DNA of 59,123 nt, from assembly GCA_964582775.1 (NCBI GenBank), contig CAZOTO010000001.1:1-59123 (forward strand), in the 5' to 3' direction. The number at the start of each line of letters is the position of its first letter. Within the stretch, counting starts at the first letter, position 1. The notes under the pieces were generated by a model. That model did no database searches, had not been told where the DNA came from, and worked only from the letters and a program-made list of their open reading frames with translations. Shown here one piece after another: positions 41,517 to 56,685 of the stretch. A program made the position numbers and the translations under genes. The DNA comes from an uncultured Myxococcales bacterium. Lineage in GTDB: Bacteria > Myxococcota_A > UBA9160 > SZUA-336.

Positions 41517-42497
41517 TTAGACCGAATCGAGTCCCCAGACATAGACCGGAACCCTGGGCGGATGACCCGGATCCCCAAAGACGGTGCGCGGGCTCTCGCC
41601 CCCAAACCACCTCTCATCCAGGATTCGGAACATCGCGAACGACCCCAACTCCACGGATTCACACTGCGAAGGATCAACGGGGGGAGGGAGACAATCGGGC
41701 GCGAGAATGGCGACGCCATCTCCGCGCTCGGCTGCGACGAAACGGAGGATCCGTTCGACATCGCGCGGATCGCCCGCCCATTCGTGGATGACGCCCTGCA
41801 GGTCGCGCCCCTTGCCTTCTATGCAATAGGCGGTCGTTGCGCGCTCTCGTTCGTGGACGTAGAGATGGGTATCCGGGACGGAAAGGAGGCGCTCGAGATC
41901 CGGTACGCTGCGCACCGCACGCACGGGATGTCGCTCGAACAGCGGCAGGATCGCCGAGGCGTCTCCACTCGTCCCAGTGCGAATATTCTCATTCATTCTG
42001 TTTCTCTTTCGACCTTCGTCCGGAGCATGCGAAAATCCGCGAGGTGCGATTCGCATCACCTTCTCCCGGCCGGCCAGCGCGAAACCGAGGCGTTCGTACA
42101 ACCGACTCGGAGTTCCGAACAGCCAAGCGACGACTGCACCCGCCTGCCTAGCCTCCTCGATACAGGCGCGGACCACTCTCGCTGCGAATCCATGACCCCG
42201 GGAGCCACGAGCAGTGGTTACCAGTCCGATCCCAGCGGAGGGGATCCGCTTCTCTCGCGAGACGAGCTCGACCGCACGCCAAGCCGCGTGTGAGACGATC
42301 CTGTCGCATTCGTCCAGCAATACGACTTGATGGCCGGCATTTTCCTCCCCCATGAGAAGCGGGAACTCCCCGGAGACTCCTGGAACGTCATCGAACTCCG
42401 CATCCACGAATCGCGCAAGCTCCCGGCATCGATCGAGCGGGAGCTTTGCGACACGAAACTGGCCCACGGAGGCCTCGGGAGATTCTTTTCCATTCAT
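41517..42497 (-). CDS. GNAT-family N-acetyltransferase with C-terminal extension (Eis-like layout)
   Basis: ..[38 protein letters not shown].. acetyl-CoA binding motif, followed by a second ~170-aa domain. Confidence 0.7.
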
Positions 42498-42570
42498 GAC
42501 GATCGGTTACGCGATGATCTGCGTCCCGCGGATAGGATGCATGGTCTTTTCGCAATATTCCAACTCCGCT

Positions 42571-42597
42571 TAAGCCCGGTACTTGCGATCCCGAAAG
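42571..42597 (+). promoter_or_regulatory. Sigma-28 (FliA)-like promoter candidate for fliC
   Basis: TAAG-N15-CCCGAAAG compared with the consensus TAAA-N15-GCCGATAA (3/4 and 5/8 matches), about 115 nt upstream of the fliC ATG. Confidence 0.3.
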
Positions 42598-42710
42598 GCG
42601 GTTTGCAGCGGGGGGTCCGCCGCACACCATCCGGCGACAGAGGAGGAGCCGGAGGTGGAGAGCGAGGCAGGGAGGCCTCGCGCGACGCATTCACGGAGGA
42701 ACTTCAGACA

Positions 42711-43559
42711 ATGGGTCTACGGATCAACACGAATCTGGCGTCTCTGAACGCCCAGAAGAACTTGAGCAAGTCACAGGTAGCGTTGGAGCGCTCCCTCGAT
42801 CGATTGTCGTCCGGTCTGCGGATCACCCGCGCATCGGATGACGCCGCCGGGTTGGCGATTTCCGAGTCTCTTCGCGCGCAGATTCGCGGCCTCGGGCAGG
42901 CGCAGCGAAATGCGAACGACGGGATCTCGGTCATCCAGACGGCAGAGGGTGCACTGAACGAGATCTCGAACATCCTCATCCGGATGCGCGAGCTCGCGGT
43001 TCAGTCTTCGTCGGAGGGATCGATCTCCAACACGGAGCGATCGTTCCTCCAGAACGAGTTCAGCGCCCTGCAGTCCGAGATCACCCGGATCGCGAGCTCG
43101 ACGAAGTTCGGGGGCCGAACCCTCGTCGACGGATCGCTGTCGGGCAGCGGCAATGCGCTCACCTTCCAGGTGGGAATCTTCAACGACGCCGCGGTGGACC
43201 GCATCTCGCTGTCCATCGGAAACGCGACCGCCAGCGGTCTCGGTGTGACCGCATCCGACGCCGCCATCTCCACGGCGGCCTCGGCGCAGGCGGCTCTCAG
43301 CACGATCGATTCGGCACTCTCGTCCGTGTCGACCCTGCGCGGTGACCTGGGTGCAGCGCAGAACCGGCTGCAGAGCACGATCAACAACCTGGGCCAGTCG
43401 GTCGAGAATCTTTCGGCCGCGAATTCCCGCATCCGCGACGTGGACGTGGCGGAGGAGACGGCGGCGCTCACGCGCAACCAGGTGCTGCAGCAGGCGGGTA
43501 TTGCCGTCCTCGCGCAGGCGAACGTGTCCTCGCAGGCGGCCCTGTCGCTCCTGCAGTAA
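42711..43559 (+). CDS. fliC: Flagellin (short, D0/D1-only type, 282 aa)
   Basis: [121 protein letters not shown] upstream. Confidence 0.95.
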
Positions 43560-43566
43560 CCAGGGT

Positions 43567-43625
43567 GGGGACTCGAGTCCCCGGATTCGAGATGGGGAGG
43601 AGGGGTCGACCCCCCTTCTCCCCAT
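43567..43625 (+). terminator. Two consecutive GC-rich hairpins after fliC
   Basis: GGGGACTCGAGTCCCC (43567-43582) is a perfect palindrome. ATGGGGAGGAGGGG-tcga-CCCCCCTTCTCCCCAT (43592-43625) has one G-U pair. No long U-tract. Confidence 0.6.
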
Positions 43626-43699
43626 TCGCATTCCAGACAGAACGATCGGTTTCATTTCGGGGCTAAATCACAGCTCGGTTGCGCACGAAAGAAAGGGAC

Positions 43700-45091
43700 A
43701 TGAGCAGCGGAATCGGCGCCATCACGTTCCAGGGTTTGAGCTCCGGCCTCGACACCCAGGAGATCATCGACAAGCTCCTCGAACTGGAGCGCCGCCCGAT
43801 CAGTTTGATCGAGGACAAGAAGACACGCGCGGAAGAAAAGCGCACGATCCTCGAAGACCTCAATACGAAGACACGCACCCTTCGCGATATCCTGCGCAAG
43901 ATTGATAACATGAACACGCTCGGATCCGGCCTCTCTTCCAGCGAGGAGTTCAGGCGGTTCGAGGCGAGTTCGAGCGATGAGACGATCGCTACCGCGACGG
44001 CGGGCGGCCGCGCGATGGGAGGAAGCATCGTCATCGGCGTCGAACAGCTCGCCCAGCAGGAGCGAAATTCCTCGAACGGATTCAGCGAAGAGAACAGCTC
44101 CGTTGGGACCGGAACGCTTCAATTCCGCGTTGGTTCCGGAGATCCCGTTTCGATCACGATCGATTCGAGCAACGAGGGGCTGACGGATCTCGCAGCAGCG
44201 GTCAATGATGCCAATGCCGGAGTGGGAGCGTTCGTTATCTATGACGGAGGCGCGAGTGCAAGCCCCTATCGATTGGTGATCTCGAGCACAGAGACCGGAG
44301 CGGATCACGCCATCACCTTCGACTCCGTTCCCACTGGGTTGACACTTACCGAAAGCCAGGCCGCACAAAACGCGCGAATCATCATCGACCGGGGCCAGCC
44401 CGGAGCCATTACCATCGAGAGCGCGACGAACACATTCGACTCCATTGCTCAAGACCTATCCATAACGGTGAAGCGAGTCGATCCAACGAACGACGTGACG
44501 ATCTCGCTGGACCAGAGCACCGACAAGATCGTCGAGAACCTAAAGGGTGTCGTCGATGCCTACAACGAGATCATTTCCATCATCGATGAGCAGGCGGTCA
44601 TCAACCCAGCAACGAATCGCGGGGGGCCGTTGATTGGAGATCGAACGCTCCTCGATCTGAAGCAGGCGCTTGCGACCGCGATTTCGACCACCACTGGGTC
44701 TGGAAGTGTCACGTCGGCGTTCCAGGTCGGCCTGACGATCGACCGCGACGGCCTGCTCACCTTGGATGAGGACAAGCTTCGGTCTGCTCTCGACGCGAGT
44801 TTCGATGACGTCTCGGAGTTCTTCGCTACCCGCGGAGGCGGCTTCGTCTCGTTCTCGGATCGGCTCCGCAAGGTAACGGATCGATTCGTGGACGCCGTCG
44901 ATGGCGCTCTCGTTGCCCGGATCGAGGGTGCCAACCGGACGATCTCCGATCTCGCGAAGGACATCGAGGACGCAGAGGACCGCCTGGAGAGGTCCGAACA
45001 GAGCCTCGTGCTCAAGTTCTCACAGCTCGAGCGCCTGATCTCTCAGATGAAGCAACAGAGCGACTACCTGGCTCAGTATCTGCTTTCATAG
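43700..45091 (+). CDS. fliD: Flagellar filament cap protein
   Basis: MSSGIGAITFQGLSSGLDTQEIIDKLLELERRPISLIEDKK.. and a C-terminal coiled coil ..LVLKFSQLERLISQMKQQSDYLAQ.. Confidence 0.9.
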   Translation: MSSGIGAITFQGLSSGLDTQEIIDKLLELERRPISLIEDKKTRAEEKRTILEDLNTKTRTLRDILRKIDNMNTLGSGLSSSEEFRRFEASSSDETIATATAGGRAMGGSIVIGVEQLAQQERNSSNGFSEENSSVGTGTLQFRVGSGDPVSITIDSSNEGLTDLAAAVNDANAGVGAFVIYDGGASASPYRLVISSTETGADHAITFDSVPTGLTLTESQAAQNARIIIDRGQPGAITIESATNTFDSIAQDLSITVKRVDPTNDVTISLDQSTDKIVENLKGVVDAYNEIISIIDEQAVINPATNRGGPLIGDRTLLDLKQALATAISTTTGSGSVTSAFQVGLTIDRDGLLTLDEDKLRSALDASFDDVSEFFATRGGGFVSFSDRLRKVTDRFVDAVDGALVARIEGANRTISDLAKDIEDAEDRLERSEQSLVLKFSQLERLISQMKQQSDYLAQYLLS

Positions 45092-45121: not shown

Positions 45122-45517
45122 ATGTACACGAATACAGCAGTTGCACATGCGGCGTATCAGAGCGGACAGGTACACGCTGCTGGGCCCGTTCGGATCGTCG
45201 TGCTGCTGTACGATGGGGCGATCCGGTTTGCGCGAAAGGCGCTCACCCATTTCGACGAGGTTTCCATCCGTGGCGAGGCCCTCGGGCGTTCTCATGCGAT
45301 CGTTACGGAGCTTCTCGGTGCGCTCGATGCCGAAAAGGGCGGCGAGATCGCCTACAACCTGGCACGGCTCTACGAGTTCGTTCTCGATCGACTGATTCAG
45401 GCAAACGTACGAGGGGATCGCAAGGGGCTCGCGGGCGCGATCTCGGTCATGGAGACGCTCGCCTCGAGTTGGAGAGAGATCGACACGGCTCCCATGGTGC
45501 AGAGGTCTCACCCATGA
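45122..45517 (+). CDS. fliS: Flagellin-specific export chaperone
   Basis: 131 aa: ..AAYQSGQVHAAGPVRIVVLLYDGAIRFARKA..ITELLGALD..GGEIAYNLARLYEFVLDRLIQAN.. Confidence 0.9.
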   Translation: MYTNTAVAHAAYQSGQVHAAGPVRIVVLLYDGAIRFARKALTHFDEVSIRGEALGRSHAIVTELLGALDAEKGGEIAYNLARLYEFVLDRLIQANVRGDRKGLAGAISVMETLASSWREIDTAPMVQRSHP

Positions 45518-45843
45518 TCGACCGCCGCTTCCTCGAGTGGCTCGAGGAGTCGGAGCGGATCCTGGGCGCTCCCGAGGTGAGCCGGGCCGAGATCATCGCC
45601 CGGGCCGCCGAGCGCAGGGCGTCTCTCGTACGGTCGCTCGACCTGCTTCCGCCCGACGATCTGCCCCCTCGCGAGATCGCAGAGCGACTCGTGGCGACGG
45701 AGCGGGCGATCGCGGAGTTGATGGCCCGCGCACTCGACCGAACGCGCGAGGAACTCGCTGGCATCCGCCGGGCACAGGTTGCGGTGCATGGCTATCGGCC
45801 GACGAAGGTCCGAGGGCCATCCCTTCTTTCACGGTCGATCTGA
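45514..45843 (+). CDS. Small helical protein in the fliT position (FliT-like, tentative)
   Basis: ATGA overlap with fliS. 109 aa. The pattern ..RRASLVRSLDLLPPDDLPPREIAERLVATERAIAELM..ELAGIRRAQVAVHGYRP resembles Bacillus-type FliT (..reaL..i.PPyt.eE..kk.k..Y.nPY). Confidence 0.4.
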   Translation: MIDRRFLEWLEESERILGAPEVSRAEIIARAAERRASLVRSLDLLPPDDLPPREIAERLVATERAIAELMARALDRTREELAGIRRAQVAVHGYRPTKVRGPSLLSRSI

Positions 45844-45937
45844 CCCCCCGCGGCAGATCCTGCCGGGTCTGCGTCGTCCGTGTCCAACCCTGTCGAGATA
45901 CGGCGGCAGATGGCCGAGACCCTGATGGGCATGCCTC

Positions 45938-47800
45938 TTGCTCCATCCGCAAGCCGCCGTGGATGCTATGCATGGGCGACTACAGGGGAATCTGGACGCG
46001 CTGAGCCGGCGACAGCCGGCGCTGTCGGAGCGTCTCCGCACGCACCGTGGGACCGCGCGGATCGAGATCCTGGAGACCAGATCCGGCGACATCTCGATCC
46101 GACTCGACGGGCGACTCGAGGCGAGCGCCGTCGATCCACGGGAGGAGGCGCAACGATTCGCCGAGGAGATCCGACGCCGCGCCACCGATGCCGGAGCACA
46201 GAGGATCGTCCTCCTCGGCATTGGCGTCTACAGCCTGCCCGCAATCGCCGACATCCAAGCTCCGATCCTGGTCATCGAGCCCTCCCTGGACCTCGTTCGA
46301 GCCGTATTCGAGACGGTCGACCTGCGCGATGCGCTGGAGCATGTCGAGCTCGTCGTCGGTGACGGGATCGGCGCCGCGTTAGGCCATCCTCTCTTCCGCG
46401 GATCGGAGCGGGGGATCATTCTTTCCCATGCCTCGACGCGACGCCGGGCCCCGGACTTCCACGATGCGCTCGTCCAACGCTTCCATCCCGGGGGAGATCC
46501 TTCGCCACTCGACATTGCCGTGATTCCTCCCCTTTTCGGGGGCTCACTGCCCGTGGCGGATTCTTGTGCGCGCGCGCTTCGCCAACTCGGACACCGGGTA
46601 CGGTATCCAGATCTATCCCCTTTTCTTCCCGCGTACCAGGAGATCGGTCGCTCGACTTCTGGCGATCTCCTCGAGCCGTTCTCGGCCCCTCTCCGCTCCG
46701 GCTTGGTGCGACTGATCGGCCAGACGATCCTCGCGGGCTTCCAGATCGACCCGCCCGATCTCGTATTCGCACTGGCACAGGCACCGCTCGACCTGGAGAT
46801 GCTCGATTCCCTGCGCAAGCAAGGGATCACTCGTGCATTCTGGTTCTGCGAGGACTTCCACGTCATGCCCTACTGGAAGGCTCTCGCACCACACTTCGAC
46901 GTGTTCTTCCACATCCAACCGGAGGACTTCTCCAAGCCCCTGCGAGATGCGGGGGGAAATGGGGTGCCCCTCCCGATGGCGTTCGACCCGCAGATCCACC
47001 GCCCGGTCGATCTGCGGATGGAGGATCAGGAGCGTTATGGATCCGACCTCTCGTTCGTCGGGGCTGGATACTACAACCGGATTCAGTGCCTCCCGTCGCT
47101 GTTTTCGATGGGGCTGCGCATCTGGGGAACGGAGTGGCCGATCACTGCCCCGTTCCTCGACGTCATGCCGGAACCGAACGTTCGGCAGTCGAGCGAGACG
47201 TCGAACCTGATCTTCAACGCGACCCGCATCAATCTGAACCTGCACTCTTCTCCCTGGTGCGATTCCGTGAATCCCGTGGGCGATTTCGTGAACCCCCGCA
47301 CGTTCGAGCTCGCGGGAGCCGGTGCGTTCCAACTCGTCGACGAACGGCGGGATCTCGACCAGTTCTTCGTTCCAGGCCGCGAGATCGTGACCTTCCGCGA
47401 TCTCGCGGAGTGTCGGGAGAAGATCTCGTACTACCGCTCCCACCCGGAGGAGCGACTCGAGATCGCGGCGCGAGCGCATTCGCGAGCGCTCGCAGAGCAC
47501 ACCTACCGGCATCGCATGGAGACTGCGCTCGATCTCCTGCGCTCCGGCTCGATCCCATTGACGTCCCGGCGCCGGACCCAGATCACGGTGGGGGAGACGA
47601 TCGATCAGGCCTCCGACGAGCCGGAGCTACGCGAGATCCTTGGACGGGCTCCGCAGGACGACGCGATGGACTACCGCGCCGTGTCCTTGGCCATCGGACG
47701 GGGGTCCGGAGAGCTCTCCCGGGAGGAGAAGCTCCTCCTCTTCATGCGAGAGGCGCGGGCCGAAGTCGAGATCCACGGCTCGAGCGAGGCCTCGACATGA
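45938..47800 (+). CDS. Maf-N-terminal-like module fused to a CgeB/Glyco_trans_1_2-like glycosyltransferase body
   Basis: 620 aa. N-terminus: ..NLDALSRRQPALSERL..IEILETRSGDISIRLDGRLEASAVDPREEAQRFAEEI..RIVLLGIGV.. C-terminus: ..NLNLHSS..VNPRTFELAGAGAFQLVDERRDL..EIVTFRDLAECREKISYYRSHPEERLEIA..ALAEHTYRHRME. An alternative ATG lies 30 nt downstream. Confidence 0.7.
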   Translation: MLHPQAAVDAMHGRLQGNLDALSRRQPALSERLRTHRGTARIEILETRSGDISIRLDGRLEASAVDPREEAQRFAEEIRRRATDAGAQRIVLLGIGVYSLPAIADIQAPILVIEPSLDLVRAVFETVDLRDALEHVELVVGDGIGAALGHPLFRGSERGIILSHASTRRRAPDFHDALVQRFHPGGDPSPLDIAVIPPLFGGSLPVADSCARALRQLGHRVRYPDLSPFLPAYQEIGRSTSGDLLEPFSAPLRSGLVRLIGQTILAGFQIDPPDLVFALAQAPLDLEMLDSLRKQGITRAFWFCEDFHVMPYWKALAPHFDVFFHIQPEDFSKPLRDAGGNGVPLPMAFDPQIHRPVDLRMEDQERYGSDLSFVGAGYYNRIQCLPSLFSMGLRIWGTEWPITAPFLDVMPEPNVRQSSETSNLIFNATRINLNLHSSPWCDSVNPVGDFVNPRTFELAGAGAFQLVDERRDLDQFFVPGREIVTFRDLAECREKISYYRSHPEERLEIAARAHSRALAEHTYRHRMETALDLLRSGSIPLTSRRRTQITVGETIDQASDEPELREILGRAPQDDAMDYRAVSLAIGRGSGELSREEKLLLFMREARAEVEIHGSSEAST

Positions 47801-49440
47801 GGAGGATCGGAATCCTCAACCTCACCCGGTTCGGAGACCTGATCCAGACGTCGCCGGTTCTCGTGGGACTGCGCAAGCGCTATCCGCAAGCCGAGATCGA
47901 GCTGATCGTGAAGAGCCGGTTCCGGGCCGCAGCAGAGCTCCTTCCCGGCATCGACGCGATCCGCGAGATCGACGGGAATGCGCTCGCGAATGTCCTCGCC
48001 GACCCCCGGTACAGCTTCCTCGATGGTTATCGAGCCGCACGTCGGATCGCAGATCATCTCGGATCCATTCGATACGACACGGTCTTCAACTTCACGCACT
48101 CTCGGATGTCCGCGGCAGTCCTGTCCCTCCTCGACGTGGAGCGTGTCATCGGCTTCTGCATGGATCGCCACGGGCACCGGCAGGTCGAGAACCCGTGGCT
48201 CCTACACATGGGAACCGTCGTCCGCGCCCGGAAGCTGATGCGGTTCAATTTGGTGGACGTCTATCTGGGCGCCGCCGGATTGCATGGATGCGGGGAGAGC
48301 CTGTGCGTCCGGATCGATGCGGAGGATCGATCGAACGCGAGCTCGAGATTGCCAGGGGAAGGAAGGCTGCTGGCCGTTCAACTCTCAGCCAGCAGCGACG
48401 CCAAGGCTTGGTCGGTCGAGCGGTATGCGGATACGCTTCGCGCGCTCGATCGGCGCATGAAGGATCTACGCGTCGTACTGGTCGGCGTGGCCGCCGAGCG
48501 AGGCCGGGCCCAGCAGCTCATGGCTCTCTGCCCTCACCTGTCGATCGTCGATCTGGTCGGAGAGACCAGCGTATCGGAGCTCGCCGCCGTACTCGAACGC
48601 TGTCATCTCCTTCTCACGGGGGATACCGGGACGATGCATCTGTCCGCCGCCGTGGGTACCCGCACGTGCACGGTGTTCGTCGGCCTCGGAAATCCGTGGG
48701 AGACGGCCGCCTATGGAGAGGGGCACGTCTCCCTCCTCTCCCGACTTTCCTGCGCTCCCTGTCAACACCACGTCCGCTGCGGTAATCCGGTCTGTCATCG
48801 AGACGTCCCACCCGAGTGGCTGGCGCTGGTGTTGGATCGTCTTCTCCACGGAAGCGATCTCGCGGACGTTCCCCCACTCGAGCGCGCCGATCTCTTCCAA
48901 TCGCAGTTCGACGGATCGGGGATGCTCGACCTGCTTCCTCTCCACGTCAGGAAGGCCGAGTCGCACGAGCTCTTCGCTCTCGCCTATCGCGCGTTGTTCC
49001 TGGAGAGCCTCGAGGGGCATCCGTTCCATGCAGAGGCCGTGTGGCGCGCCGCCGCCGCGCGCCATGGAGTCCCGGCAGAGGAATGGATCTGCGTCGTTCC
49101 ACGAGAGCTCGTCGCAGAGCTCACACATCTGGCGCGCCTCGCAAGTGAAGCCCAACGGATCACCGCATCGCTCGTTCGGGTGACCTCATCGGACCCGGGT
49201 CTCGTTCGCGCGGGAGAACGGCTGCGTGCACTGGACGAGCAGATCCTTCGGATCACGAGCACACACCCGCTTCTCGCACCCATCGGATTCTCCCTCTCCG
49301 GCGCTCTCGAGAGCCTACCCGAGGAGGGATTGATCACCCTCGCGACCCTCTGCTCCGAGCAATACGGGCTTGCGGGGCGCCGCGCCGCAGCTCTCCACGA
49401 GCTGATCCTGGGACCTGCATCCAAGGGAGGTATGAAGTGA
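47797..49440 (+). CDS. Glycosyltransferase family 9 (heptosyltransferase-like) with ~200-aa helical C-terminal extension
   Basis: ATGA overlap with the upstream gene. MRRIGILNLTRFGDLIQTSPVLVGLRKRYPQAEIELIV..LLAVQLSASSDAKAWS..LVGETSVSELAAVLERCHLLLTGDTGTMHLSAAVGT..CAPCQHHVRC.. The last ~200 aa have no recognisable motif. Confidence 0.78.
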   Translation: MRRIGILNLTRFGDLIQTSPVLVGLRKRYPQAEIELIVKSRFRAAAELLPGIDAIREIDGNALANVLADPRYSFLDGYRAARRIADHLGSIRYDTVFNFTHSRMSAAVLSLLDVERVIGFCMDRHGHRQVENPWLLHMGTVVRARKLMRFNLVDVYLGAAGLHGCGESLCVRIDAEDRSNASSRLPGEGRLLAVQLSASSDAKAWSVERYADTLRALDRRMKDLRVVLVGVAAERGRAQQLMALCPHLSIVDLVGETSVSELAAVLERCHLLLTGDTGTMHLSAAVGTRTCTVFVGLGNPWETAAYGEGHVSLLSRLSCAPCQHHVRCGNPVCHRDVPPEWLALVLDRLLHGSDLADVPPLERADLFQSQFDGSGMLDLLPLHVRKAESHELFALAYRALFLESLEGHPFHAEAVWRAAAARHGVPAEEWICVVPRELVAELTHLARLASEAQRITASLVRVTSSDPGLVRAGERLRALDEQILRITSTHPLLAPIGFSLSGALESLPEEGLITLATLCSEQYGLAGRRAAALHELILGPASKGGMK

Positions 49441-50024
49441 TGATCGAACTCGGAATCAATGGACGTCGCAGCTCCGTTCAGCCGCGATCCGCGCGCGAGC
49501 TGTGCGAGCTCATCGATCGGGCGCTGCCGACGGGTCACGTGATCTACGCCGTGCAGGCCAATGGGCGCATCGTCGACGCGGACCAGCTCAGCTCCTTCGA
49601 CGTCGGCGTGCTCCGAGAGGTGAGCGTGGAGAGCGCGACACCGGCAGAGATCGCTCGCAGCAGCCTGGGAGAGACTCGGGAGTGGATGGGACGCATCATG
49701 AGTGCGCTCGATTCCGTCTCTCGCGACTACCGCTTCGGAAGGGAACGAAACGCGCACGCCCGACTCGTCGATGTCATCGATGCGCTACAGGTTCTCGTGA
49801 ACCTCCTCGGATCCATCCACACCTTCTTGGTGCGCGAGACTCCTTGTAGCTCGGGATTCGAATCCTCTTGGGTGCAGGCGGAACGCGATCTCCGAGATGG
49901 CGTCGATGGCTTGCTATCGGATCTCGAGAAGGAGGATCCGATCGAGCTCGCGGATCGGACCGGCTATGCGCTTCCGGGCGTCCTCGCGCAGTTCCGCGAC
50001 CTGTTGGGCCGTCTGGACTCCTGA
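49437..50024 (+). CDS. Hypothetical protein; N-terminal ~65 aa ThiS/MoaD-like (beta-grasp) by pattern only
   Basis: GTGATG start region overlaps the GT9 stop, with GGGAGG upstream. MMIELGINGRRSSVQPRSARELCELIDRALPTGHVIYAVQANGRIVDAD..REVSVES, then a helical C-terminal half. Confidence 0.55.
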   Translation: MMIELGINGRRSSVQPRSARELCELIDRALPTGHVIYAVQANGRIVDADQLSSFDVGVLREVSVESATPAEIARSSLGETREWMGRIMSALDSVSRDYRFGRERNAHARLVDVIDALQVLVNLLGSIHTFLVRETPCSSGFESSWVQAERDLRDGVDGLLSDLEKEDPIELADRTGYALPGVLAQFRDLLGRLDS

Positions 50025-50040
50025 GTCCCTCGAACCCGGG

Positions 50041-50643
50041 ATGCGGCGCGAGATGAATGCATCGGACACGAACGGCGAACGGCGCGAGTTCTTCCGCGTC
50101 GAGATTCCTGCGCGGGTGCGCTTGCGCGCGGTTTCGGGCGACGAGGTCGAGTCTGCGCGTACACGAATCCGAACGAGGCAGGTTCCGGCGGCGTTTGCCC
50201 CTGGCGCATTGGAGGAGAACCGGATCGGATCCGAGCACCGGCTCACGATTGGGCTTCTCCGCGGTATCGCACTCTCGCTCGAGCGCATGGAGCGCTCTCT
50301 CGCCGAGCTCGCGGAGCGTGGGGTCGGATCGTCGGGTCTTCCCGAGGGGCGGCGAGATCCGGTCCCGCTCTCCTTGTCCGGATCCGGATTCTCGGGTCCT
50401 CTCGCGTTCGAGCTCGTCCCCGGCTCCGTCGCAGAGGTGGAGATCGATCTGCTGGACGCCGGCTATCCGCTGATTCGAGCCCTCGCGGAGCAGACCCGCG
50501 GCCCGGACATCGAGAGCGATCCCGCGTTCGCAGCCTTCCGGTTCGTCGAGATCCCCGACGACGATCGGGAGCGAATCGTTCAGCTCGCGCTCCGGATCGA
50601 CAGGCAGTCGCTGCAGCGCAATCGGTCGGGAGCATTCGAGTGA
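50041..50643 (+). CDS. PilZ domain protein with a ~90-aa insertion between the RxxxR and [DN]xSxxG motifs
   Basis: RREFFRVEIPARVRLRAV (R15-R19) ...insertion with HRLTIGLLRGIALSLERMERSLAELAERG... PVPLSLSGSGFSGP (SxSxxG at ~111-116) ..AFRFVEIPDDDRERI. Confidence 0.7.
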   Translation: MRREMNASDTNGERREFFRVEIPARVRLRAVSGDEVESARTRIRTRQVPAAFAPGALEENRIGSEHRLTIGLLRGIALSLERMERSLAELAERGVGSSGLPEGRRDPVPLSLSGSGFSGPLAFELVPGSVAEVEIDLLDAGYPLIRALAEQTRGPDIESDPAFAAFRFVEIPDDDRERIVQLALRIDRQSLQRNRSGAFE

Positions 50644-52193
50644 TCTCGAGCAGTCCTCGCATCCTGTTGATCGGCGGAACCTATCGCGCCTTGCGCGTGC
50701 TCGAGCATCTCATCGAACGAAGAGAGCGCGTCGTCGCCTTTCTCGGCATCGAGAGCGACCCTGGGCACGACTGCTGCGCCGAAACGCTAGAGCTCTGCAA
50801 CCGGTTCTCGATCCCGGCGCGGGCCGGACGCAAGCTCGGAGAAGAGATCGTCCGCTGGCTCGAGGATCGGATTCGCCCCGATCTCGCGATCGCGGTGGGG
50901 ATGGACGTTCCGATTCCCCTCGCGATCGGAGGCAATTGCAGGCTCGGTCTCCTCGAGGCCGTCGATCGATTCCAGACCCGCGCTTCCCCTGGCGTCACCC
51001 TTCGGCGTCACGGCCGCATCGCGCTCGAGCGAGGAGTCGAGGGGGATCGCGGCGCGGAGAATCGAGAAGACGACTTCGCTCGCGTGGTCGAAGAGGTGGT
51101 CGAATGCATCGGCTCGTTTCTGGATGATCTTCGCGCAGCGAAGTCCGATGAACCGGCTCGTGTGCCCTTCATGATCCATTCGAGCTCCCGCGTCGCTTCG
51201 CGCGAAACGGAGCCTCCCTGCGGGACCCGCGGCTCGCACGCAGCTCCCGGCTGCGATACGAGGCGCTTGGAAGAGGAGGCCGGGCGCTACCTCGGCGCGG
51301 AGGCAGTGTTCGCCCTGCGCTCGCCGACGGACGCGTACCGGGCCCTCGGCCATTCGATCGGACTGCGCGATGGCGCCGAGGTGATCGTTCCGGGAGTCGC
51401 CTCGACGGAGGTCCTCCTCGCTTTGCGCTCCCTGGGCGCCCGGGCGGTTCTCGTCGACGTGGACCCCGCTCGCCTCACGATCGACGTCGATCGGGCACGC
51501 GCGGCGATCGGTCCGCGCACGCGCGCGATCGTGATCTCCCATCCCTTCGGGCAACCCGCTCCGATCGATCTGCTGTACGGACTCGCCGAGGAGCACGCGC
51601 TCGAGGTGATCGAGGATGGCGGCGACAGCCTGGGAGCGCGGTTCGGAGAGTCTCGCATCGGTCGAAGCCCATGCGCCTGCGTCTTCCGGCTGCCGGCTGC
51701 CGCGTCCCCGGGGGAGGAGAGCCTGGCTCTGGTGGCCCTTCCCGAACCATGGGCGGAGCGCTTCGAGCCCGAGGGGAAGGCGCTGCGCGCATCGGATGCG
51801 TGCAGCGCGATGGCGCGGTCCGAGCTCGCTCGGCTCGAGGACACGATCAGCGAGCGAAGAGCGAATGCGAGCTTCTACTCCTCGGAGCTGGTTCCGTACG
51901 ATGCGTTCCGCGTGCCCGTGACACCGGAAGACGGACTATCGACCCATGCGGGCTATCTGCTGCGACTCACGCGATTTGCGCGCACGTCGGCCGCCGATCT
52001 CGCGCGACTGCTCGGCGAGAGCGGCATCGAGACGCAACGCCTGCAGCTCGGGATCTCGGAGCGCGAGCTCGGGGCGCTTCCCTGCACGGACGAGGCGCTC
52101 CACACGTCTCTGCTGCTTCCGGTGGGCCCCGGCCTCGATGATTCGCAGCGCGAGCACGTCCTCGATTCGATCTTCGGCTACGCGATCGGCTAG
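50640..52193 (+). CDS. Fusion protein: N-terminal formyltransferase-like Rossmann domain (tentative) + DegT/DnrJ/EryC1-fold domain lacking the PLP lysine
   Basis: GTGA overlap with the PilZ gene. DegT-like stretch: RRLEEEAGRYLGAEAVFALRSPTDAYRALGHSIGLRDGAEVIVPGVASTEV..AVLVDVDPARLTIDVD..TRAIVISHPFGQPAPID..ALEVIEDGGDSLGARFGESRIG. Where FSFxxxK is expected, the sequence reads CVFRLPAAASPGEE. Confidence 0.65.
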   Translation: MISSSPRILLIGGTYRALRVLEHLIERRERVVAFLGIESDPGHDCCAETLELCNRFSIPARAGRKLGEEIVRWLEDRIRPDLAIAVGMDVPIPLAIGGNCRLGLLEAVDRFQTRASPGVTLRRHGRIALERGVEGDRGAENREDDFARVVEEVVECIGSFLDDLRAAKSDEPARVPFMIHSSSRVASRETEPPCGTRGSHAAPGCDTRRLEEEAGRYLGAEAVFALRSPTDAYRALGHSIGLRDGAEVIVPGVASTEVLLALRSLGARAVLVDVDPARLTIDVDRARAAIGPRTRAIVISHPFGQPAPIDLLYGLAEEHALEVIEDGGDSLGARFGESRIGRSPCACVFRLPAAASPGEESLALVALPEPWAERFEPEGKALRASDACSAMARSELARLEDTISERRANASFYSSELVPYDAFRVPVTPEDGLSTHAGYLLRLTRFARTSAADLARLLGESGIETQRLQLGISERELGALPCTDEALHTSLLLPVGPGLDDSQREHVLDSIFGYAIG

Positions 52194-52891
52194 CGCGGAT
52201 CCCGTACTCGCGAGTCACCACGAGCCGTGGGTTGGGGATCCTCTCGCGCACCGGTGTCCCTGGCCGCGACACCGGGCGCCGTCTCGATCTGCGCCCCCGC
52301 GAGATACGCCTCGGCGTCGCGCGCGAGCGCATCGTCGAGCTCCTCGGGTCGCCCCTGCTCCATCCAGACGATGTCGATCAGCGTCCCGGGCCAAGCCGGA
52401 TGCAGGCAGCGCGTCCCCCGCGCACGCACGTGGAGGGCCACCCCGGGGGGCGCCTCGGCCGGAAATCGATCGAGCACGCGACTCTCGTACTCGATGCACC
52501 ACTGTCCCTGGCGCGTAGTGAGCCGCTGTTCGTATTGAAGACGCGTGAAGCGCGCCTCGTTCTCGATCTCGTCTGCACGGGCGACTCGCGCCAACTCCTC
52601 GTGCGACTTGGGGCTCGAACCGACGAAGCGAAGATCGATCGCCACGAGAAAACCGTGGGTGTCCGATCCCCTCGTCTCGTAGCGGACCACCGCCTGACTC
52701 GGCGCCTGCTCCTCCTCGCGCAGATACCACCCCGACGCCGGCCTCGGGATCGAGAATCCGCGGTACTGCATGCGATCACCGCCGGCCGAACCCGGCCCCG
52801 CGGGCGCACCTGCGCACCCGATCGCCACGCAGGCCGCGAGCGCGAATGCCCCGGCGATCGGGATCCCGAGGGCCGTGAAATGCGAGCCCAT
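52190..52891 (-). CDS. Hypothetical lipoprotein
   Basis: 233 aa. Signal plus lipobox (..ALAACVAIGCAG..). No other motif. Confidence 0.6.
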   Translation of the reverse strand: MGSHFTALGIPIAGAFALAACVAIGCAGAPAGPGSAGGDRMQYRGFSIPRPASGWYLREEEQAPSQAVVRYETRGSDTHGFLVAIDLRFVGSSPKSHEELARVARADEIENEARFTRLQYEQRLTTRQGQWCIEYESRVLDRFPAEAPPGVALHVRARGTRCLHPAWPGTLIDIVWMEQGRPEELDDALARDAEAYLAGAQIETAPGVAARDTGAREDPQPTARGDSRVRDPR

Positions 52892-53055
52892 GGACCTCTC
52901 CTCCTTTTGGAAAGCTCTTATAGAATGACTCCCCGGCGATCATGACATGCAGAGGGTGCGATGAACCTCTTCGTGCCGCGCGAGATCATGGTCCGGGGGC
53001 GATCCGTGGGACCTCGTGCCCGGATCGAACGGCCGGATCACACAGGAGCTCACCC

Positions 53056-54810
53056 ATGCGTCCGCTCGCGATCGGAATCGGTCTCCTCCTCGGTATCGCA
53101 GCGACGCCGGATCGGTCGCTCGCAGCCACCGTGTCGGGAATCGTGACGAGCGAGGCGGGGACCCCGATCCCCCTTGCCCAGGTCACCCTCGCACATGCCC
53201 GTTTCGGCCGGAGCACGACCGTCTACACGGACGGGACGGGGCGCTACCGCGTCGGGGATCTCGCAGCGGGCTCGTACCGGTTCCGCGTGCGCCGGATCGG
53301 TTTCGGCAGCCTCGAGGAGTCGGGGCTCGATCTCGGGACGGACACGGCACTCGAGCGCAACGCGAGCCTTCCCACCCTCCCCAAGTCCGAGTGGATCCAC
53401 GACCTGCCCGCGAGCGATTGGTACGCAGGCGCGAAGTTCTCCCGCCCGGACCTCGGCGCGCAGTTCGCGATCCAGTGCCTCATGTGTCATCAGCAGGGCT
53501 CGAGCACGACGCGAGCCCCGCGCAGCACGGAGGACTGGCAGCGGATCTTCTCCCTGATGGCGGAGTTCGGCGCGATGATGACGCAGGAGCTCTACGACGA
53601 GGCGCCCGAGGTGCTCAACGCCGCGTGGGACTGGACGCAGCGGCCGCTCGACACGTTCCCCGACGAGCCGTCCGTGCTCGATCCCGCGGCCACGGAGGTC
53701 GTGATCGACGAGTGGCTCGTGGGCGAGCCGACCTCGTTCCTGCACGACATCGTGATCGGGAAGGACCAGAGGATCTACGCGGTCGACTGGATCAACGACA
53801 AGCTGTTCCGTTTGGATCCCGGGACGAACGAGATCCGCGAATGGAGCATTCCCAAGGGCGATCTCGAGGTGGGGGGGATCCTCGGCAAGCTCGCCGAGCG
53901 CGGTCGCCGCTACACCCATCACACGCCGACGCTCGCCCCCCACAGCATCCAGGCCGGCCCCGACGGGACGTTGTGGACGACCCTCAGCATCGGGCGTGGT
54001 CTCGCGAGCTTCGATCCCGACACGGAAGAGTTTCGGTCTTTCGACCATCCTCCGCACGTGATGTACCCCCATACGCTGCGCTTCGATCGAACCGGCGACA
54101 TCTGGTACACGGTCTCGATGACGAACCACCTCGGACACTTCTCGCCGGCGACGGGCGAGTTCGAGATCTTCGACCTGCCCACGCGCACCTGGTCGCAGTG
54201 GATCGTCGCTCGCGTCATGCGGCCCTTCGTCTGGATCGCGAACACGTTCGACATCCGCGGACAAGCGGTGGTCTCCGATCCCGAGATCAATCCCGTTCCC
54301 TATGGCATCGACATCGCCCCCGACGGACGGGTGTGGTTCTCGCAGTTCAACAACTGGCGCATCGGGGTGCTCGATCCCGCGACCACGCACATCGAGATGA
54401 TCGACACGCCCTTTCCGGGACCGCGCCGCTTCCGCATCGACTCGAAAGGCGTGCTGTGGATTCCCTCCTACTACGCGGGGCGCTTCTTCCGCTTCGATCC
54501 GGCCACGCGGGAGTTTCGCGAATTTCGCCTTCCGACCGGCGAGGGCGACATGATCTACGCGCTCGCCATCGATCCGCGCGACGACTCCGTGTGGCTGTGC
54601 GGAACGAACTCCGACACGATCGTTCACTTCGATCCGCGCACCGAGGCATTCCGCACGTACCTTCTGCCGAGCAAGGTGAGCTTCACGCGCGAGCTCGAGG
54701 TGGATCGCGAGGGCAATGTGTGGACGAGCACGTCGAACCTGCCCTACTTCCAGATGGAGGGCATGCAGGGGCGCGTGATCCGCCTGCGCTTCCCCGGCTC
54801 ACAGCCGTAG
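53056..54810 (+). CDS. Secreted protein: carboxypeptidase-regulatory-like domain + CxxCH heme-c segment + Vgb/SMP-30-like beta-propeller
   Basis: ATG 53056 with AGGAG upstream and a signal peptide. ..VSGIVTSEAGTPIPLAQVTL..TDGTGRYRVGDLAAGSYRFRV.. CLMCH at 53476-53490. Repeated ..G..W.t.. blades (DGTLWTT, GDIWYTV, GRVWFSQ, GVLWIPS, DSVWLCG, GNVWTST). Confidence 0.75.
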   Translation: MRPLAIGIGLLLGIAATPDRSLAATVSGIVTSEAGTPIPLAQVTLAHARFGRSTTVYTDGTGRYRVGDLAAGSYRFRVRRIGFGSLEESGLDLGTDTALERNASLPTLPKSEWIHDLPASDWYAGAKFSRPDLGAQFAIQCLMCHQQGSSTTRAPRSTEDWQRIFSLMAEFGAMMTQELYDEAPEVLNAAWDWTQRPLDTFPDEPSVLDPAATEVVIDEWLVGEPTSFLHDIVIGKDQRIYAVDWINDKLFRLDPGTNEIREWSIPKGDLEVGGILGKLAERGRRYTHHTPTLAPHSIQAGPDGTLWTTLSIGRGLASFDPDTEEFRSFDHPPHVMYPHTLRFDRTGDIWYTVSMTNHLGHFSPATGEFEIFDLPTRTWSQWIVARVMRPFVWIANTFDIRGQAVVSDPEINPVPYGIDIAPDGRVWFSQFNNWRIGVLDPATTHIEMIDTPFPGPRRFRIDSKGVLWIPSYYAGRFFRFDPATREFREFRLPTGEGDMIYALAIDPRDDSVWLCGTNSDTIVHFDPRTEAFRTYLLPSKVSFTRELEVDREGNVWTSTSNLPYFQMEGMQGRVIRLRFPGSQP

Positions 54811-56675: not shown

Positions 56676-56685
56676 CGCCACGGGT

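What the first reader, a model, noticed from the sequence alone, without database searches (positions are those of the whole stretch)
45938..52193. Five translationally coupled genes joined to fliD-fliS-fliT: candidate c-di-GMP-linked flagellar filament modification module with a non-canonical enzyme set
Seen in sequence:
- fliC has its own hairpin terminator. After it, fliD-fliS-(fliT-like) is followed across a 95-nt gap by five ORFs.
- Their junctions are ATGA (47797-47800), GTGATG (49437-49442), a 16-nt gap, and GTGA (50640-50643). This indicates one co-translated unit.
- The unit ends in a CTAG stop/stop overlap with a convergent lipoprotein gene.

Domain reading by motif:
1. A Maf-type N-terminal module grafted onto a CgeB/Glyco_trans_1_2-like body instead of the usual Maf MptE-like core.
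2. A GT9 heptosyltransferase-like enzyme carrying an extra ~200-aa helical tail.
3. A 195-aa ORF with a ThiS/MoaD-like N-terminus.
4. A PilZ protein split by a ~90-aa insertion.
5. A formyltransferase-like/DegT-like fusion whose PLP lysine is absent.

No nucleotide-sugar pathway genes (pse/leg/neu or similar) are visible in the window.

Established knowledge: Maf proteins and other glycosyltransferases encoded next to flagellin genes O-glycosylate flagellin. PilZ domains bind c-di-GMP. Protein O-heptosyltransferases (TibC/AAH) are homologous to LPS heptosyltransferases.

Inference: this unit modifies the short flagellin (Ser/Thr-rich centre ..[36 protein letters not shown]..) or FliD, possibly under c-di-GMP control, using catalytically dead scaffold proteins. 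I am not aware of this exact combination being described, but I cannot search.
Basis: partly seen in the sequence, partly recalled or inferred. Interest (0 to 1): 0.72.

Follow-up and report, generated by a model that had tools for sequence, protein, structure and literature searches.

The report
Flagellin-locus glycosyltransferase module with PilZ partner
Next to the flagellin genes of an uncultured myxobacterium lies a conserved, uncharacterised four-gene set (two sugar-transferring enzymes, a small adaptor-like protein and a c-di-GMP-sensor-like protein) that most likely decorates the flagellar filament; the fifth gene is a separate neighbour.

Summary
The sequence observation holds. The five ORFs, their ATGA / TGATG / 16-nt / GTGA junctions and the CTAG stop overlap are all present, and most domain readings are confirmed.

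The five-gene module is really 4 + 1. In about 30 related Myxococcota loci, GNAT–fliC–fliD–fliS–fliT-like–ORF1–ORF2–ORF3–ORF4 is present or absent as one block. ORF5, the DegT-like protein without the PLP lysine, is always present and keeps the same sigma-54 promoter.

There are three transcription units:
- sigma-28-type promoter driving fliC, followed by a terminator hairpin;
- sigma-28-type promoter driving fliD–fliS–fliT-like;
- sigma-54 promoter (45928–45942) driving ORF1–ORF5.

ORF3 belongs to a large family, DUF8042/TP0873-like, with about 2,850 clusters at 50% identity. It has a ThiS-like beta-grasp plus a four-helix bundle. In 10 of 12 unrelated lineages sampled it sits beside flagellin-locus glycosyltransferases: a GT9 with a Cys4 knuckle, a CgeB-like enzyme, or Maf. 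In three lineages, counting this one, a PilZ protein follows it.

Best reading: a cytoplasmic flagellin O-glycosylation system using non-Maf enzymes, with a GlfM-like adaptor and a possible c-di-GMP input. Glycosylation itself is inferred, not shown. I found no description of this module in the searchable literature.

The parts
41517..42497 (-). GNAT acetyltransferase (Acetyltransf_9/Eis-like, 326 aa), divergent from fliC. It co-varies with the flagellar block.
   Evidence: Pfam 1e-12. Found in every type-A locus where the region is on the contig and in none of the type-B loci.
42570..42597 (+). Sigma-28-type promoter of fliC (TTAAG-N15-CCGAAAG).
   Evidence: CTAAAGATCG...CCGAATA is conserved upstream of fliC in the related loci. 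Coordinates.
42711..43559 (+). fliC, a short flagellin (282 aa) with a Ser/Thr-rich centre. This is the presumed substrate.
   Evidence: Flagellin_N 6e-43 and Flagellin_C 5e-25. 80-85% identical across the clade. All module-associated flagellins outside Clostridia are 277-284 aa.
43567..43623 (+). Two GC-rich hairpins after the fliC stop; terminator-like.
   Evidence: The 84-nt stretch folds at -45.9 kcal/mol. A GC-rich hairpin is visible after fliC in most related loci printed. The simple terminator scan did not call it because the U tract is weak.
43663..43691 (+). Sigma-28-type promoter of fliD-fliS-fliT-like (CTAAA-N..-CACGAAAG).
   Evidence: GCTAAACC-N13-GCTCGAAAGGA is conserved upstream of fliD in 6 related loci. 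Coordinates.
43700..45091 (+). fliD, the filament cap.
   Evidence: FliD_N 4e-22 and FliD_C 2e-39.
45122..45517 (+). fliS, the flagellin chaperone.
   Evidence: FliS 1.8e-29.
45514..45843 (+). fliT-like 109-aa helical protein joined to fliS by an ATGA overlap. It could be FliT or a GlfM-type adaptor.
   Evidence: FliT 5e-4, below threshold. Conserved in all type-A loci. A protein of 142-153 aa sits at the same position in L030, L042, L044 and L048; in L042 and L048 it weakly matches FlgM rather than FliT.
45851..45865 (+). Conserved palindrome CGGCAGATCCTGCCG, about 75 nt upstream of the sigma-54 promoter. Candidate activator (bEBP) site.
   Evidence: GGCA(A/G)-N3-5-(C/T)TGCC is seen at the same place in most type-A loci. 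Its function is inferred.
45928..45942 (+). Sigma-54 promoter (-24 GGCATG / -12 TTGCT) of the ORF1-ORF5 operon.
   Evidence: Two matches in the window against 0.08 expected. The other match precedes a pilin-like operon. There is one match per locus in 23 loci, always just upstream of ORF1 (type A) or of ORF5 (type B).
45968..47800 (+). ORF1: a roughly 610-aa GT-B glycosyltransferase. It has a CgeB/YkvP-like DUF3880 + Glyco_trans_1_2 body, a Maf-N-like head and a roughly 80-aa tail.
   Evidence: The head gives only sub-threshold Maf signals. Family mean column identity is 70%.
47797..49440 (+). ORF2: a 547-aa GT9-family glycosyltransferase with a Cys4(His) knuckle (C319, C322, C328, C333, H334) and a roughly 210-aa C-terminal extension.
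   Evidence: GT9 at 2.8e-27. PDB 3TOV at 2.8e-17 with the family profile. Invariant D14, D276-T-G and four Cys. The knuckle is present in 12 of 14 homologues across lineages. Scores fall below the NCBIfam LPS-heptosyltransferase cut-offs.
49440..50024 (+). ORF3: DUF8042/TP0873-like protein, with a ThiS-like beta-grasp (1-67) and a four-helix bundle (77-194). Presumed adaptor.
   Evidence: AF2 pLDDT 91. Foldseek hits ThiS 3CWI and generic four-helix bundles, with FliS at rank 11. Family size 2,854 clusters. PF26154 is recorded on homologues.
50041..50643 (+). ORF4: PilZ-type protein with RRxxxR at residues 14-19, a roughly 90-aa helical insert and hSxxG at 112-116.
   Evidence: The best PDB profile hit is MotI/YpfA 5VX6, E=0.066. 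A full-length homologue lies next to DUF8042 in L046.
50640..52193 (+). ORF5: 517 aa, with a conserved alpha/beta N-domain and a DegT-fold domain lacking the PLP lysine. It is co-transcribed here but is phyletically independent of the flagellar block.
   Evidence: It stands alone in type-B loci.

Best explanation
The locus holds three transcription units:
- a sigma-28-type promoter, fliC and a terminator hairpin;
- a sigma-28-type promoter driving fliD-fliS-fliT-like;
- a sigma-54 promoter driving ORF1-ORF2-ORF3-ORF4-ORF5, which are translationally coupled.

**Shown: the functional unit.** ORF1-ORF4, together with the divergent GNAT gene, form a flagellar-filament accessory module.

**Inferred: the mechanism.**
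1. ORF1 (a CgeB-like GT-B enzyme with a Maf-N-like head) and ORF2 (a GT9 enzyme with a metal-knuckle and a helical tail) O-glycosylate the short flagellin in the cytoplasm before FliS-assisted export.
2. ORF3 (DUF8042, beta-grasp plus four-helix bundle) acts like GlfM. It bridges flagellin to the transferases.
3. ORF4, a PilZ protein encoded immediately after ORF3, makes this step respond to c-di-GMP.

**Shown: ORF5 is separate.** ORF5 is a clade-wide protein of separate, unknown function that merely shares the promoter. It has a DegT fold, no PLP lysine and a highly conserved N-domain.

The donor sugar is unknown. ADP-heptose is the default guess for a GT9 enzyme.
For: **Presence/absence as a block**
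- At one syntenic site (ispG ... Aminotran_4), at least 13 loci carry GNAT-fliC-fliD-fliS-fliT-like-ORF1-4-ORF5.
- At least 14 loci carry only ORF5.
- The ORF5-only state appears in at least 4 separate places in an ORF5 NJ tree. This points to repeated co-loss of ORF1-4 with the filament genes.

**Promoters**
- A sigma-54 -24/-12 element sits before ORF1 in every type-A locus and directly before ORF5 in type-B loci.
- Sigma-28-type motifs precede fliC and fliD.

**Recurrence outside the clade**
- I sampled 12 DUF8042 neighbourhoods: L030/L044, L038, L041, L042, L043, L045, L046, L047, L048, L049, L050 and L051.
- 10 carry GT9, Glyco_trans_1_2 and/or Maf genes within the stretch.
- 7 carry flagellin or other flagellar genes.
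- 2 have a PilZ immediately downstream.
- Single proteins fusing GT9 and Glyco_trans_1_2 (992 and 1020 aa, L042 and L048) link the two enzyme types.
- In cultured Acetoanaerobium noterae, a probable DUF8042 member overlaps the start of maf between fliC and pse genes.

**Catalytic motifs**
- They are intact in ORF2, and ORF1 has a dense invariant core.

**Precedent**
- GlfM is a four-helix-bundle adaptor required by Maf-2 (bioRxiv 10.1101/2023.12.03.569772).
- In FlmG, a separate N-terminal domain binds flagellin (PMC7591256).

**PilZ**
- RRxxxR and hSxxG are invariant in the family.
- 8 of 12 members match Pfam PilZ.
- The nearest solved structure is the flagellar clutch protein MotI.
Against: - No experiment shows that any flagellin with this module is glycosylated.
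- No donor-sugar pathway genes lie in the window.
- The Maf-N-like assignment of the ORF1 head never reaches significance.
- The D/N of the PilZ [D/N]hSxxG motif is not conserved, and the window copy scores below Pfam's cut-off. c-di-GMP binding is therefore unproven.
- Only 3 of 13 lineages pair DUF8042 with a PilZ.
- DUF8042 homology to GlfM could not be tested, because no GlfM sequence was available.
- The sigma-54 promoter also drives ORF5 in loci without flagellar genes, so it need not belong to a flagellar hierarchy.
- I could not check whether type-B genomes lack flagella entirely.
Confidence: 0.55

Rival explanations
1. All five genes form one dedicated flagellin-modification machine, in which ORF5 and others serve as catalytically dead scaffolds.
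For: The five ORFs are translationally coupled and share one promoter in this genome. ORF5 lacks the PLP lysine in all 32 homologues yet is strongly conserved.
Against: ORF5 is retained, with the same promoter, in at least 14 loci that have lost the flagellar genes and ORF1-4. No ORF5-like protein accompanies the module in the other lineages; L040 has an ordinary full-length DegT. The two transferases keep their catalytic motifs.
Confidence: 0.08
2. ORF1 and ORF2 glycosylate something other than flagellin. Candidates are FliD, hook or rod proteins, a filament sheath or coat, or a lipid- or polysaccharide-linked acceptor needed only when a flagellum is built.
For: GT9 enzymes classically act on LPS core. 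CgeB/YkvP relatives act on spore surfaces, and plasmid hits are annotated 'spore maturation protein'. No substrate evidence exists.
Against: In several lineages the module directly abuts a flagellin gene: L042, L048 and L051, and in L047 fliC-DUF8042-maf. DUF8042 also accompanies Maf, a proven flagellin transferase family. ORF2 scores far below every LPS-heptosyltransferase cut-off.
Confidence: 0.17
3. ORF3-ORF4 is a c-di-GMP-responsive checkpoint on flagellin export or filament assembly, or on the motor. It would be a chaperone-like four-helix bundle plus PilZ acting independently of glycosylation, and the transferases would merely be neighbours.
For: In L030/L044 the pair follows fliD-fliS-fliT-like directly and lies beside motA/motB/flbD and an EAL-HDOD gene. 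The transferases there are 4 kb away on the other strand. The four-helix bundle resembles FliS-type chaperones only generically. The nearest PilZ structure is MotI.
Against: DUF8042 occurs without PilZ but beside transferases in most lineages. It is often translationally coupled to a GT9 or Maf gene.
Confidence: 0.18
4. The adjacency is fortuitous and the ORFs have no flagellar role.
For: None beyond the absence of experiments.
Against: There is strict co-presence and co-absence across about 30 loci and recurrence in unrelated lineages.
Confidence: 0.02

Closest known systems
Maf-2/GlfM tripartite flagellin O-glycosylation (Shewanella oneidensis, Kurthia; bioRxiv 10.1101/2023.12.03.569772)
   Same: The transferase and a small helical-bundle accessory protein are encoded together in the flagellin locus. 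The accessory protein bridges enzyme and flagellin. A conserved Asp in the last helix is essential in GlfM. ORF3 has invariant D167 and D173 where its last helix begins.
   Different: The enzymes here are GT-B (CgeB-like and GT9), not the MptE-like Maf core. ORF3 is about 195 aa with an extra beta-grasp, whereas GlfM is 89 aa and usually lies downstream of maf. No pse/leg genes are present. Sequence homology between DUF8042 and GlfM was not tested.
FlmG of Caulobacter crescentus (PMC7591256)
   Same: It is a modular flagellin transferase, with an N-terminal flagellin-binding domain and a C-terminal GT-B domain. It acts in the cytoplasm before export.
   Different: The FlmG head is TPR; the ORF1 head is Maf-N-like or unassigned. 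FlmG transfers pseudaminic acid made by linked genes. Whether the FlmG GT domain belongs to Glyco_trans_1_2 was not checked.
TibC/AAH bacterial autotransporter heptosyltransferases (PMC4358343)
   Same: They are protein O-glycosyltransferases related to LPS heptosyltransferases. They have a four-Cys metal finger inserted after the C-lobe that serves oligomerisation and substrate recognition. ORF2 has an invariant Cys4(His) knuckle at the equivalent place.
   Different: There is no detectable sequence match to TibC. The Cys spacing differs: Cx2Cx5-6Cx4C here against Cx2Cx15Cx11C in TibC. ORF2 lacks the N-terminal beta-barrel and has a roughly 210-aa C-terminal tail.
PilZ flagellar regulators MotI/YpfA and YcgR, and tetramer-forming tPilZ (bioRxiv 10.1101/814665)
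   Same: ORF4 has the PilZ core with RRxxxR and hSxxG. The best solved match is MotI. Like tPilZ, it carries a helical insert between the two motifs, and the family consensus D/E-R-R-L-D resembles the tPilZ interlock motif.
   Different: There is no PilZN domain and no PilZ_2 (PF16823) match. The insert is about 90 aa against about 60. The gene sits with filament and glycosylation genes, not motor genes. The D/N of the second motif is not conserved.
CgeB/YkvP spore-surface glycosyltransferases (DUF3880 + Glyco_trans_1_2)
   Same: They share the two Pfam domains in the same order.
   Different: ORF1 adds an N-terminal region of about 290 aa (roughly the first 120 aa Maf-N-like) and a C-terminal tail, and it lies in a flagellar locus of a Gram-negative organism.

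Membership tests
Flagellin glycosylation island (fGT system) | Glycosyltransferase gene(s) encoded within or next to the flagellin/fliD/fliS locus and co-inherited with it | tested here: met
Flagellin glycosylation island (fGT system) | Linked donor-sugar biosynthesis genes (pse/leg/neu or other nucleotide-sugar genes) | tested here: not met
   None among the window ORFs scanned. Some distant DUF8042 loci do carry NeuB/Pse genes.
Flagellin glycosylation island (fGT system) | Flagellin shown to carry a glycan | not testable with these tools
   Needs mass spectrometry.
Maf (motility-associated factor) glycosyltransferases | MptE-like/MAF_flag10 catalytic core (PF01973) | tested here: not met
   No PF01973 match in ORF1 or its 11 homologues.
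Maf (motility-associated factor) glycosyltransferases | Maf N-terminal domain (PF20157) | tested here: inconclusive
   Pfam E=0.013-0.014, below the cut-off, and only 3 of 12 members match. PDB 5MU5 E=0.021. hhalign against a genuine Maf is collinear but gives Prob 5%. Faint hits recur in L045 and L048, and a stand-alone 232-aa protein in L041 scores 0.0015.
GT9 (heptosyltransferase family) | Pfam PF01075 above the gathering score, plus the N-terminal catalytic Asp and the C-lobe D-x-G-x-M-H motif | tested here: met
   96 bits against a cut-off of 22. D14 and D276-T-G-T-M-H are invariant. 3TOV at 2.8e-17.
LPS heptosyltransferases I/II/III (WaaC/WaaF/WaaQ equivalogs) | NCBIfam equivalog score cut-off | tested here: not met
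   76 against 185 bits, 66 against 170, and 48 against 135.
BAHT (TibC/AAH) protein heptosyltransferases | Sequence similarity to TibC; N-terminal beta-barrel; four-Cys iron finger | tested here: inconclusive
   No TibC hit at E<=0.1. A four-Cys knuckle is present but with different spacing.
CgeB/YkvP-like GT (DUF3880 + Glyco_trans_1_2) | Both Pfam domains above the gathering score, in order | tested here: met
   31 and 123 bits for the window copy. 12 of 12 family members match both.
DUF8042 / TP0873-like (PF26154) | Match to PF26154 | tested here: met
   The model is absent from the local Pfam copy, so ORF3 could not be scanned directly. ORF3 is 37-55% identical over its full length to proteins with a recorded PF26154 hit. 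The profile finds 2,854 clusters.
ThiS/MoaD sulfur carriers | Beta-grasp fold ending in a C-terminal Gly-Gly | tested here: not met
   The fold matches ThiS 3CWI and 1ZUD. However, the domain is N-terminal and continues into a helical bundle, with no free GG terminus.
PilZ c-di-GMP receptors | PF07238 above the gathering score | tested here: inconclusive
   The window copy scores 14.8 against 22.5 bits. 8 of 12 orthologues match at E<=1, best 1.2e-7.
PilZ c-di-GMP receptors | [quoted passage not shown] | tested here: inconclusive
   R14, R15, R19, S113 and G116 are invariant or nearly so. The D/N position is variable.
PilZ c-di-GMP receptors | Binds c-di-GMP | not testable with these tools
   Needs DRaCALA or ITC.
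tPilZ (PilZ_2, PF16823) | Match to PF16823; roughly 60-aa two-helix insert | tested here: not met
   No PF16823 hit in 12 members. The insert is about 90 aa.
DegT/DnrJ/EryC1 sugar aminotransferases | Fold and Pfam match | tested here: met
   132 bits. Foldseek to DesV, WbpE and ArnB at E~1e-23, TMt 0.75-0.78.
DegT/DnrJ/EryC1 sugar aminotransferases | Schiff-base lysine (WbpE K185) | tested here: not met
   Aligned to Ala354. The column is A/L/V/other in all 32 family members.
Formyltransferase N-domain (ORF5 residues 1-175) | Sequence or profile match to Formyl_trans_N / solved formyltransferases | tested here: not met
   No Pfam hit and no PDB profile hit. Only the alpha/beta topology in the AF2 model is compatible.

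The most novel reading that the evidence does not exclude
DUF8042/TP0873-like proteins are a universal, previously unrecognised class of flagellin-glycosyltransferase adaptors. They are used by both Maf-type and GT9/CgeB-type enzymes from Clostridia to Myxococcota, and the Pfam domain name TP0873_N hints at spirochaete members. Where a PilZ gene follows, c-di-GMP acts on the flagellar filament subunit itself, gating its glycosylation or release to the export apparatus rather than braking the motor or repressing transcription.
Probability: 0.2. Interest if true: 0.8.

Novelty: new variant of a known kind. Interest (0 to 1): 0.6.

Why it matters
Flagellin glycosylation affects filament assembly, motility, phage attack and immune recognition. 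Mechanistic knowledge rests on the Maf and FlmG systems that transfer nonulosonic acids.

This locus points to a different enzyme set, widely distributed in metagenomes: a GT9 with a metal knuckle plus a CgeB-like GT-B enzyme. It also points to a large accessory family, DUF8042, with about 2,850 clusters at 50% identity. I found no functional description of either in the searchable literature.

If DUF8042 is the adaptor, it would generalise the recently proposed tripartite model (enzyme, adaptor, flagellin). The adjacent PilZ would add a new output for c-di-GMP signalling.

The comparative result also gives a clean, testable split. ORF1-4 depend on the flagellum. ORF5 does not.

Tried and rejected
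- **ORF5 as the module marker.** I used it first to collect loci. It showed that ORF5 is the one gene not tied to the flagellar block.
- **Formyltransferase-like N-domain of ORF5.** Neither Pfam on residues 1-197 nor a family profile against PDB gave a hit. The Foldseek list was saturated by DegT hits.
- **Maf-N homology of the ORF1 head.** A family profile against PDB lost even the weak 5MU5 hit. hhalign against a genuine Maf was collinear but not significant.
- **ORF2 tail versus DUF8042.** No similarity.
- **ORF2 versus TibC.** No sequence match.
- **tPilZ membership of ORF4.** No PF16823 hit.
- **The 137-aa protein after DUF8042 in L042 as a cut-down ORF4.** No similarity.
- **Riboswitch or other RNA in the gaps.** No Rfam match at E<=0.1.
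- **The sigma-70 and terminator consensus scans** were uninformative in this GC-rich DNA.
- **Taxonomy of the distant loci.** Cluster look-ups returned no names.
- **Literature.** Searches for DUF3880, TP0873, PF13524 with flagellin, and GT9 with flagellin found no description of the module.
- **The plasmid collection** gave only Bacillus/Rhizobium CgeB-like hits for ORF1.

Full report
**1. What is in the sequence**

The window is GC-rich (57-68% in 2-kb windows). Between ispG (40318-41466, minus strand) and a class-IV aminotransferase gene (55758-56732, minus strand) lie these genes:
- a GNAT gene (41517-42497, minus strand);
- fliC (42711-43559);
- fliD (43700-45091);
- fliS (45122-45517);
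- a 109-aa fliT-like gene (45514-45843);
- five ORFs ending at 52193;
- a convergent 233-aa ORF with a lipoprotein-like N-terminus (no Pfam match) and a Vgb-lyase-like beta-propeller gene.

fliS and the fliT-like gene also overlap by ATGA.

Two strong hairpins follow fliC. The 84-nt stretch folds at -45.9 kcal/mol.

There are two corrections.
- The TTG at 45938 lies inside a promoter element. All homologues begin at the equivalent of ATG 45968, so ORF1 is about 610 aa and the gap is 124 nt.
- ORF3 probably starts at ATG 49440.

**2. Domain content**

| ORF | Finding |
|---|---|
| ORF1 | DUF3880 + Glyco_trans_1_2 (CgeB/YkvP type) behind a roughly 290-aa N-terminal region; its first ~120 aa give only sub-threshold Maf N-domain signals |
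| ORF2 | A genuine GT9-family protein with Asp14 and D276-T-G-T-M-H invariant; far below the cut-offs of the LPS heptosyltransferase equivalogs |
| ORF3 | No hit in the local Pfam copy; AF2 model (pLDDT 91) shows a beta-grasp (1-67) that Foldseek matches to ThiS, plus a four-helix bundle (77-194) |
| ORF4 | A PilZ protein; R14, R15, R19, S113 and G116 invariant or nearly so; 8 of 12 orthologues match Pfam PilZ; MotI is the best solved match |
| ORF5 | DegT fold; residues 1-130 are the most conserved part |

More detail on three of these:
- After its GT9 domain, ORF2 carries an invariant C319-x2-C322-x5-C328-x4-C333-H334 knuckle and a roughly 210-aa tail. The knuckle recurs in 12 of 14 homologues from several lineages. 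It recalls the TibC iron finger by position, not by sequence.
- In ORF4, about 90 mostly helical residues separate the two motifs. The D/N of the second motif is not conserved.
- The ORF5 model matches DesV, WbpE and ArnB at E~1e-23. The Schiff-base lysine is missing in all 32 homologues. The N-terminal region could not be tied to formyltransferases.

**3. The five genes are 4 + 1**

ORF5 has more than 200 full-length homologues at about 50% identity in Myxococcota MAGs. I fetched 27 species-representative loci with it, plus two long contigs and ten metagenome loci, and mapped all window proteins onto them. Two architectures occupy the same syntenic site:
- **Type A**: the window and at least 13 other loci. 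Order is ispG - GNAT(minus) - fliC - fliD - fliS - fliT-like - ORF1 - ORF2 - ORF3 - ORF4 - ORF5 - Aminotran_4.
- **Type B**: at least 14 loci. Order is ispG - ORF5 - Aminotran_4.

No locus has a partial block. In an NJ tree of ORF5, type B appears in at least four separate places among type A. The block has therefore been lost repeatedly as a whole, and ORF5 was kept each time. The tree has no bootstrap support. Every close ORF1 homologue found in metagenomes sits in the type-A context.

**4. Promoters**

- Upstream of fliC, all loci share CTAAAGATCG-N-CCGAATA. The window version is TTAAG-N15-CCGAAAG at 42570-42597.
- Upstream of fliD, they share GCTAAACC-N13-GCTCGAAAGGA. The window version lies at 43663-43691.
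- Both are sigma-28-type motifs.
- Between the fliT-like gene and ORF1, every locus has GGCAYR-N4-TTGCT, the sigma-54 -24/-12 element. In the window it lies at 45928-45942. The window has two matches against 0.08 expected, and the other match precedes a pilin-like operon.
- In type-B loci the same element, with the same TGTCGC flank, lies directly before ORF5.
- About 75 nt upstream, type-A loci share a palindrome, CGGCAGATCCTGCCG (45851-45865). It is a candidate activator site.

ORF1-5 are therefore a separate sigma-54 operon, not a simple extension of fliD-fliS-fliT-like. No terminator separates them, so read-through is possible.

**5. The module outside this clade**

A profile of ORF3 finds 2,854 clusters at 50% identity at E<=1e-3, and 743 at E<=1e-10. 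Nearly all are 195-235 aa and match end to end. Source records label members PF26154 (DUF8042), often together with TP0873_N or DUF8043.

I sampled twelve neighbourhoods from other lineages:

| Locus | Gene order |
|---|---|
| L030/L044 | fliC-fliD-fliS-142 aa-DUF8042-[PilZN1+PilZ]-EAL/HDOD, then motB/motA/flbD and a GT9 + Glyco_trans_1_2 pair |
| L042, L048 | GT genes, including a [Maf_N-like or YkvP_N + Glyco_trans_1_2] protein and a single 992/1020-aa GT9+Glyco_trans_1_2 fusion, then DUF8042-fliC-fliD-fliS |
| L045, L050 | Maf, GT9 and Glyco_trans_1_2 genes, then DUF8042 |
| L051 | GT9-DUF8042-fliC |
| L038 | CgeB-like, GT9, ORF1-like, ORF2-like, ORF3-like (hhalign 97.6%) |
| L041 | flgL-fliW-csrA-fliC-fliD-ORF3-like-fliS-MafN-like-GT9...ORF1-like |
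| L043 | Maf + NeuB + CMP-sugar genes next to DUF8042 |
| L046 | NeuB, DUF8042, an ORF4-type PilZ (hhalign 96%), a sigma-54 activator, flgBC-fliE-fliF |
| L047 | Cultured Acetoanaerobium noterae: fliW-csrA-fliC-[probable DUF8042 member, hhalign Prob 66%]-maf-pseB...neuB-pseG-pseC |
| L049 | Uninformative (contig edge) |

Ten of the twelve have transferase genes within the stretch. Seven have flagellar genes. Two have a PilZ immediately after DUF8042.

**6. Mechanism**

*Shown:*
- ORF1-4 (and GNAT) are inherited and lost with the filament genes.
- The same protein types recur next to flagellin genes across lineages.
- The GT9 and CgeB-like enzymes occur fused in two lineages.
- DUF8042 accompanies both this enzyme pair and Maf.

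*Inferred:*
- ORF1 and ORF2 O-glycosylate flagellin in the cytoplasm.
- ORF3 is an adaptor like GlfM, the four-helix-bundle factor that lets Maf-2 bind flagellin.
- ORF4 couples this step to c-di-GMP.

The modular logic matches FlmG, whose N-terminal domain binds flagellin. The 109-aa fliT-like protein could equally be the GlfM-type partner, since GlfM is described as FliS/FliT-like.

The donor sugar is unknown, and the window holds no sugar-pathway genes.

ORF5's role is unknown. Its conservation without the lysine suggests a binding or non-canonical function unrelated to the filament.

**7. Novelty and verdict**

Flagellin glycosylation islands are known, but this enzyme set plus DUF8042 plus PilZ is not described in the searchable literature. 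I rate it a new variant of a known kind.

- Confidence that ORF1-4 form a flagellum-linked module and that ORF5 is separate is high.
- Confidence that the module glycosylates flagellin is moderate.
- Confidence in c-di-GMP gating is low.

Interest is 0.6.

Noticed in passing
window 41517-42497 (-): A 326-aa GNAT (Acetyltransf_9/Eis-like) is transcribed divergently from fliC. It is present in every flagellar-block locus where the region is on the contig and absent from every locus without the block. It may acetylate the sugar or the flagellin.
   Followed up: partly
window 42657-42713 (fliC 5' leader): The leader has a hairpin presenting a GGA motif and a second GGA in the Shine-Dalgarno sequence (AGGGAGGAA in relatives). 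This is conserved across loci as GGAGCAAGGACGCTCC...AGGGAGGAA and resembles the CsrA binding sites of flagellin mRNAs. No csrA or fliW is in the window, though L041 and L047 have fliW-csrA just upstream of fliC.
   Followed up: no
window 27670-27684 (-): The second exact sigma-54 -24/-12 match in the window lies just upstream of a pseudopilin/type IV pilin-like operon (26963-27655 and downstream, minus strand).
   Followed up: no
window 34918-36624 (+) and 19997-20425 (-): Further c-di-GMP components lie nearby: an HDOD-GGDEF protein about 6 kb upstream of fliC, and a canonical stand-alone PilZ (7e-13). A GGDEF gene is also a neighbour in the type-B locus L001, so these are not specific to the flagellar block.
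   Followed up: partly
L042 5026-8004 and L048 5890-8952: Single proteins of 992 and 1020 aa fuse a GT9 domain to a Glyco_trans_1_2 domain, directly upstream of DUF8042 and flagellin. This fusion is evidence that the two enzyme types work together.
   Followed up: partly
P0191, P0225, P0243, P0262; L049 304-1302: Variants of 330-347 aa match the DUF8042 profile only at their C-terminal ~120 residues, behind an N-terminal extension of about 200 aa. One is annotated as a TPR protein, which recalls the TPR flagellin-binding domains of Maf-1 and FlmG.
   Followed up: no
L002 2303-2866: In one long-read contig the flagellin gene is called as a 135-aa C-terminal fragment, although tblastn finds 65% of the protein. 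This is probably a frameshift from assembly error, or a pseudogene.
   Followed up: no
window 52190-54810: A 233-aa lipoprotein-like ORF and a 622-aa Vgb-lyase-like beta-propeller lie between ORF5 and Aminotran_4. tblastn found neither in any related locus, so they look like an insertion specific to this genome.
   Followed up: partly
L042 12377-12838; L048 13311-13757: In two distant lineages the gene after fliS, at the position of the fliT-like gene, weakly matches FlgM, the anti-sigma-28 factor (3e-4 to 7e-4), rather than FliT.
   Followed up: no
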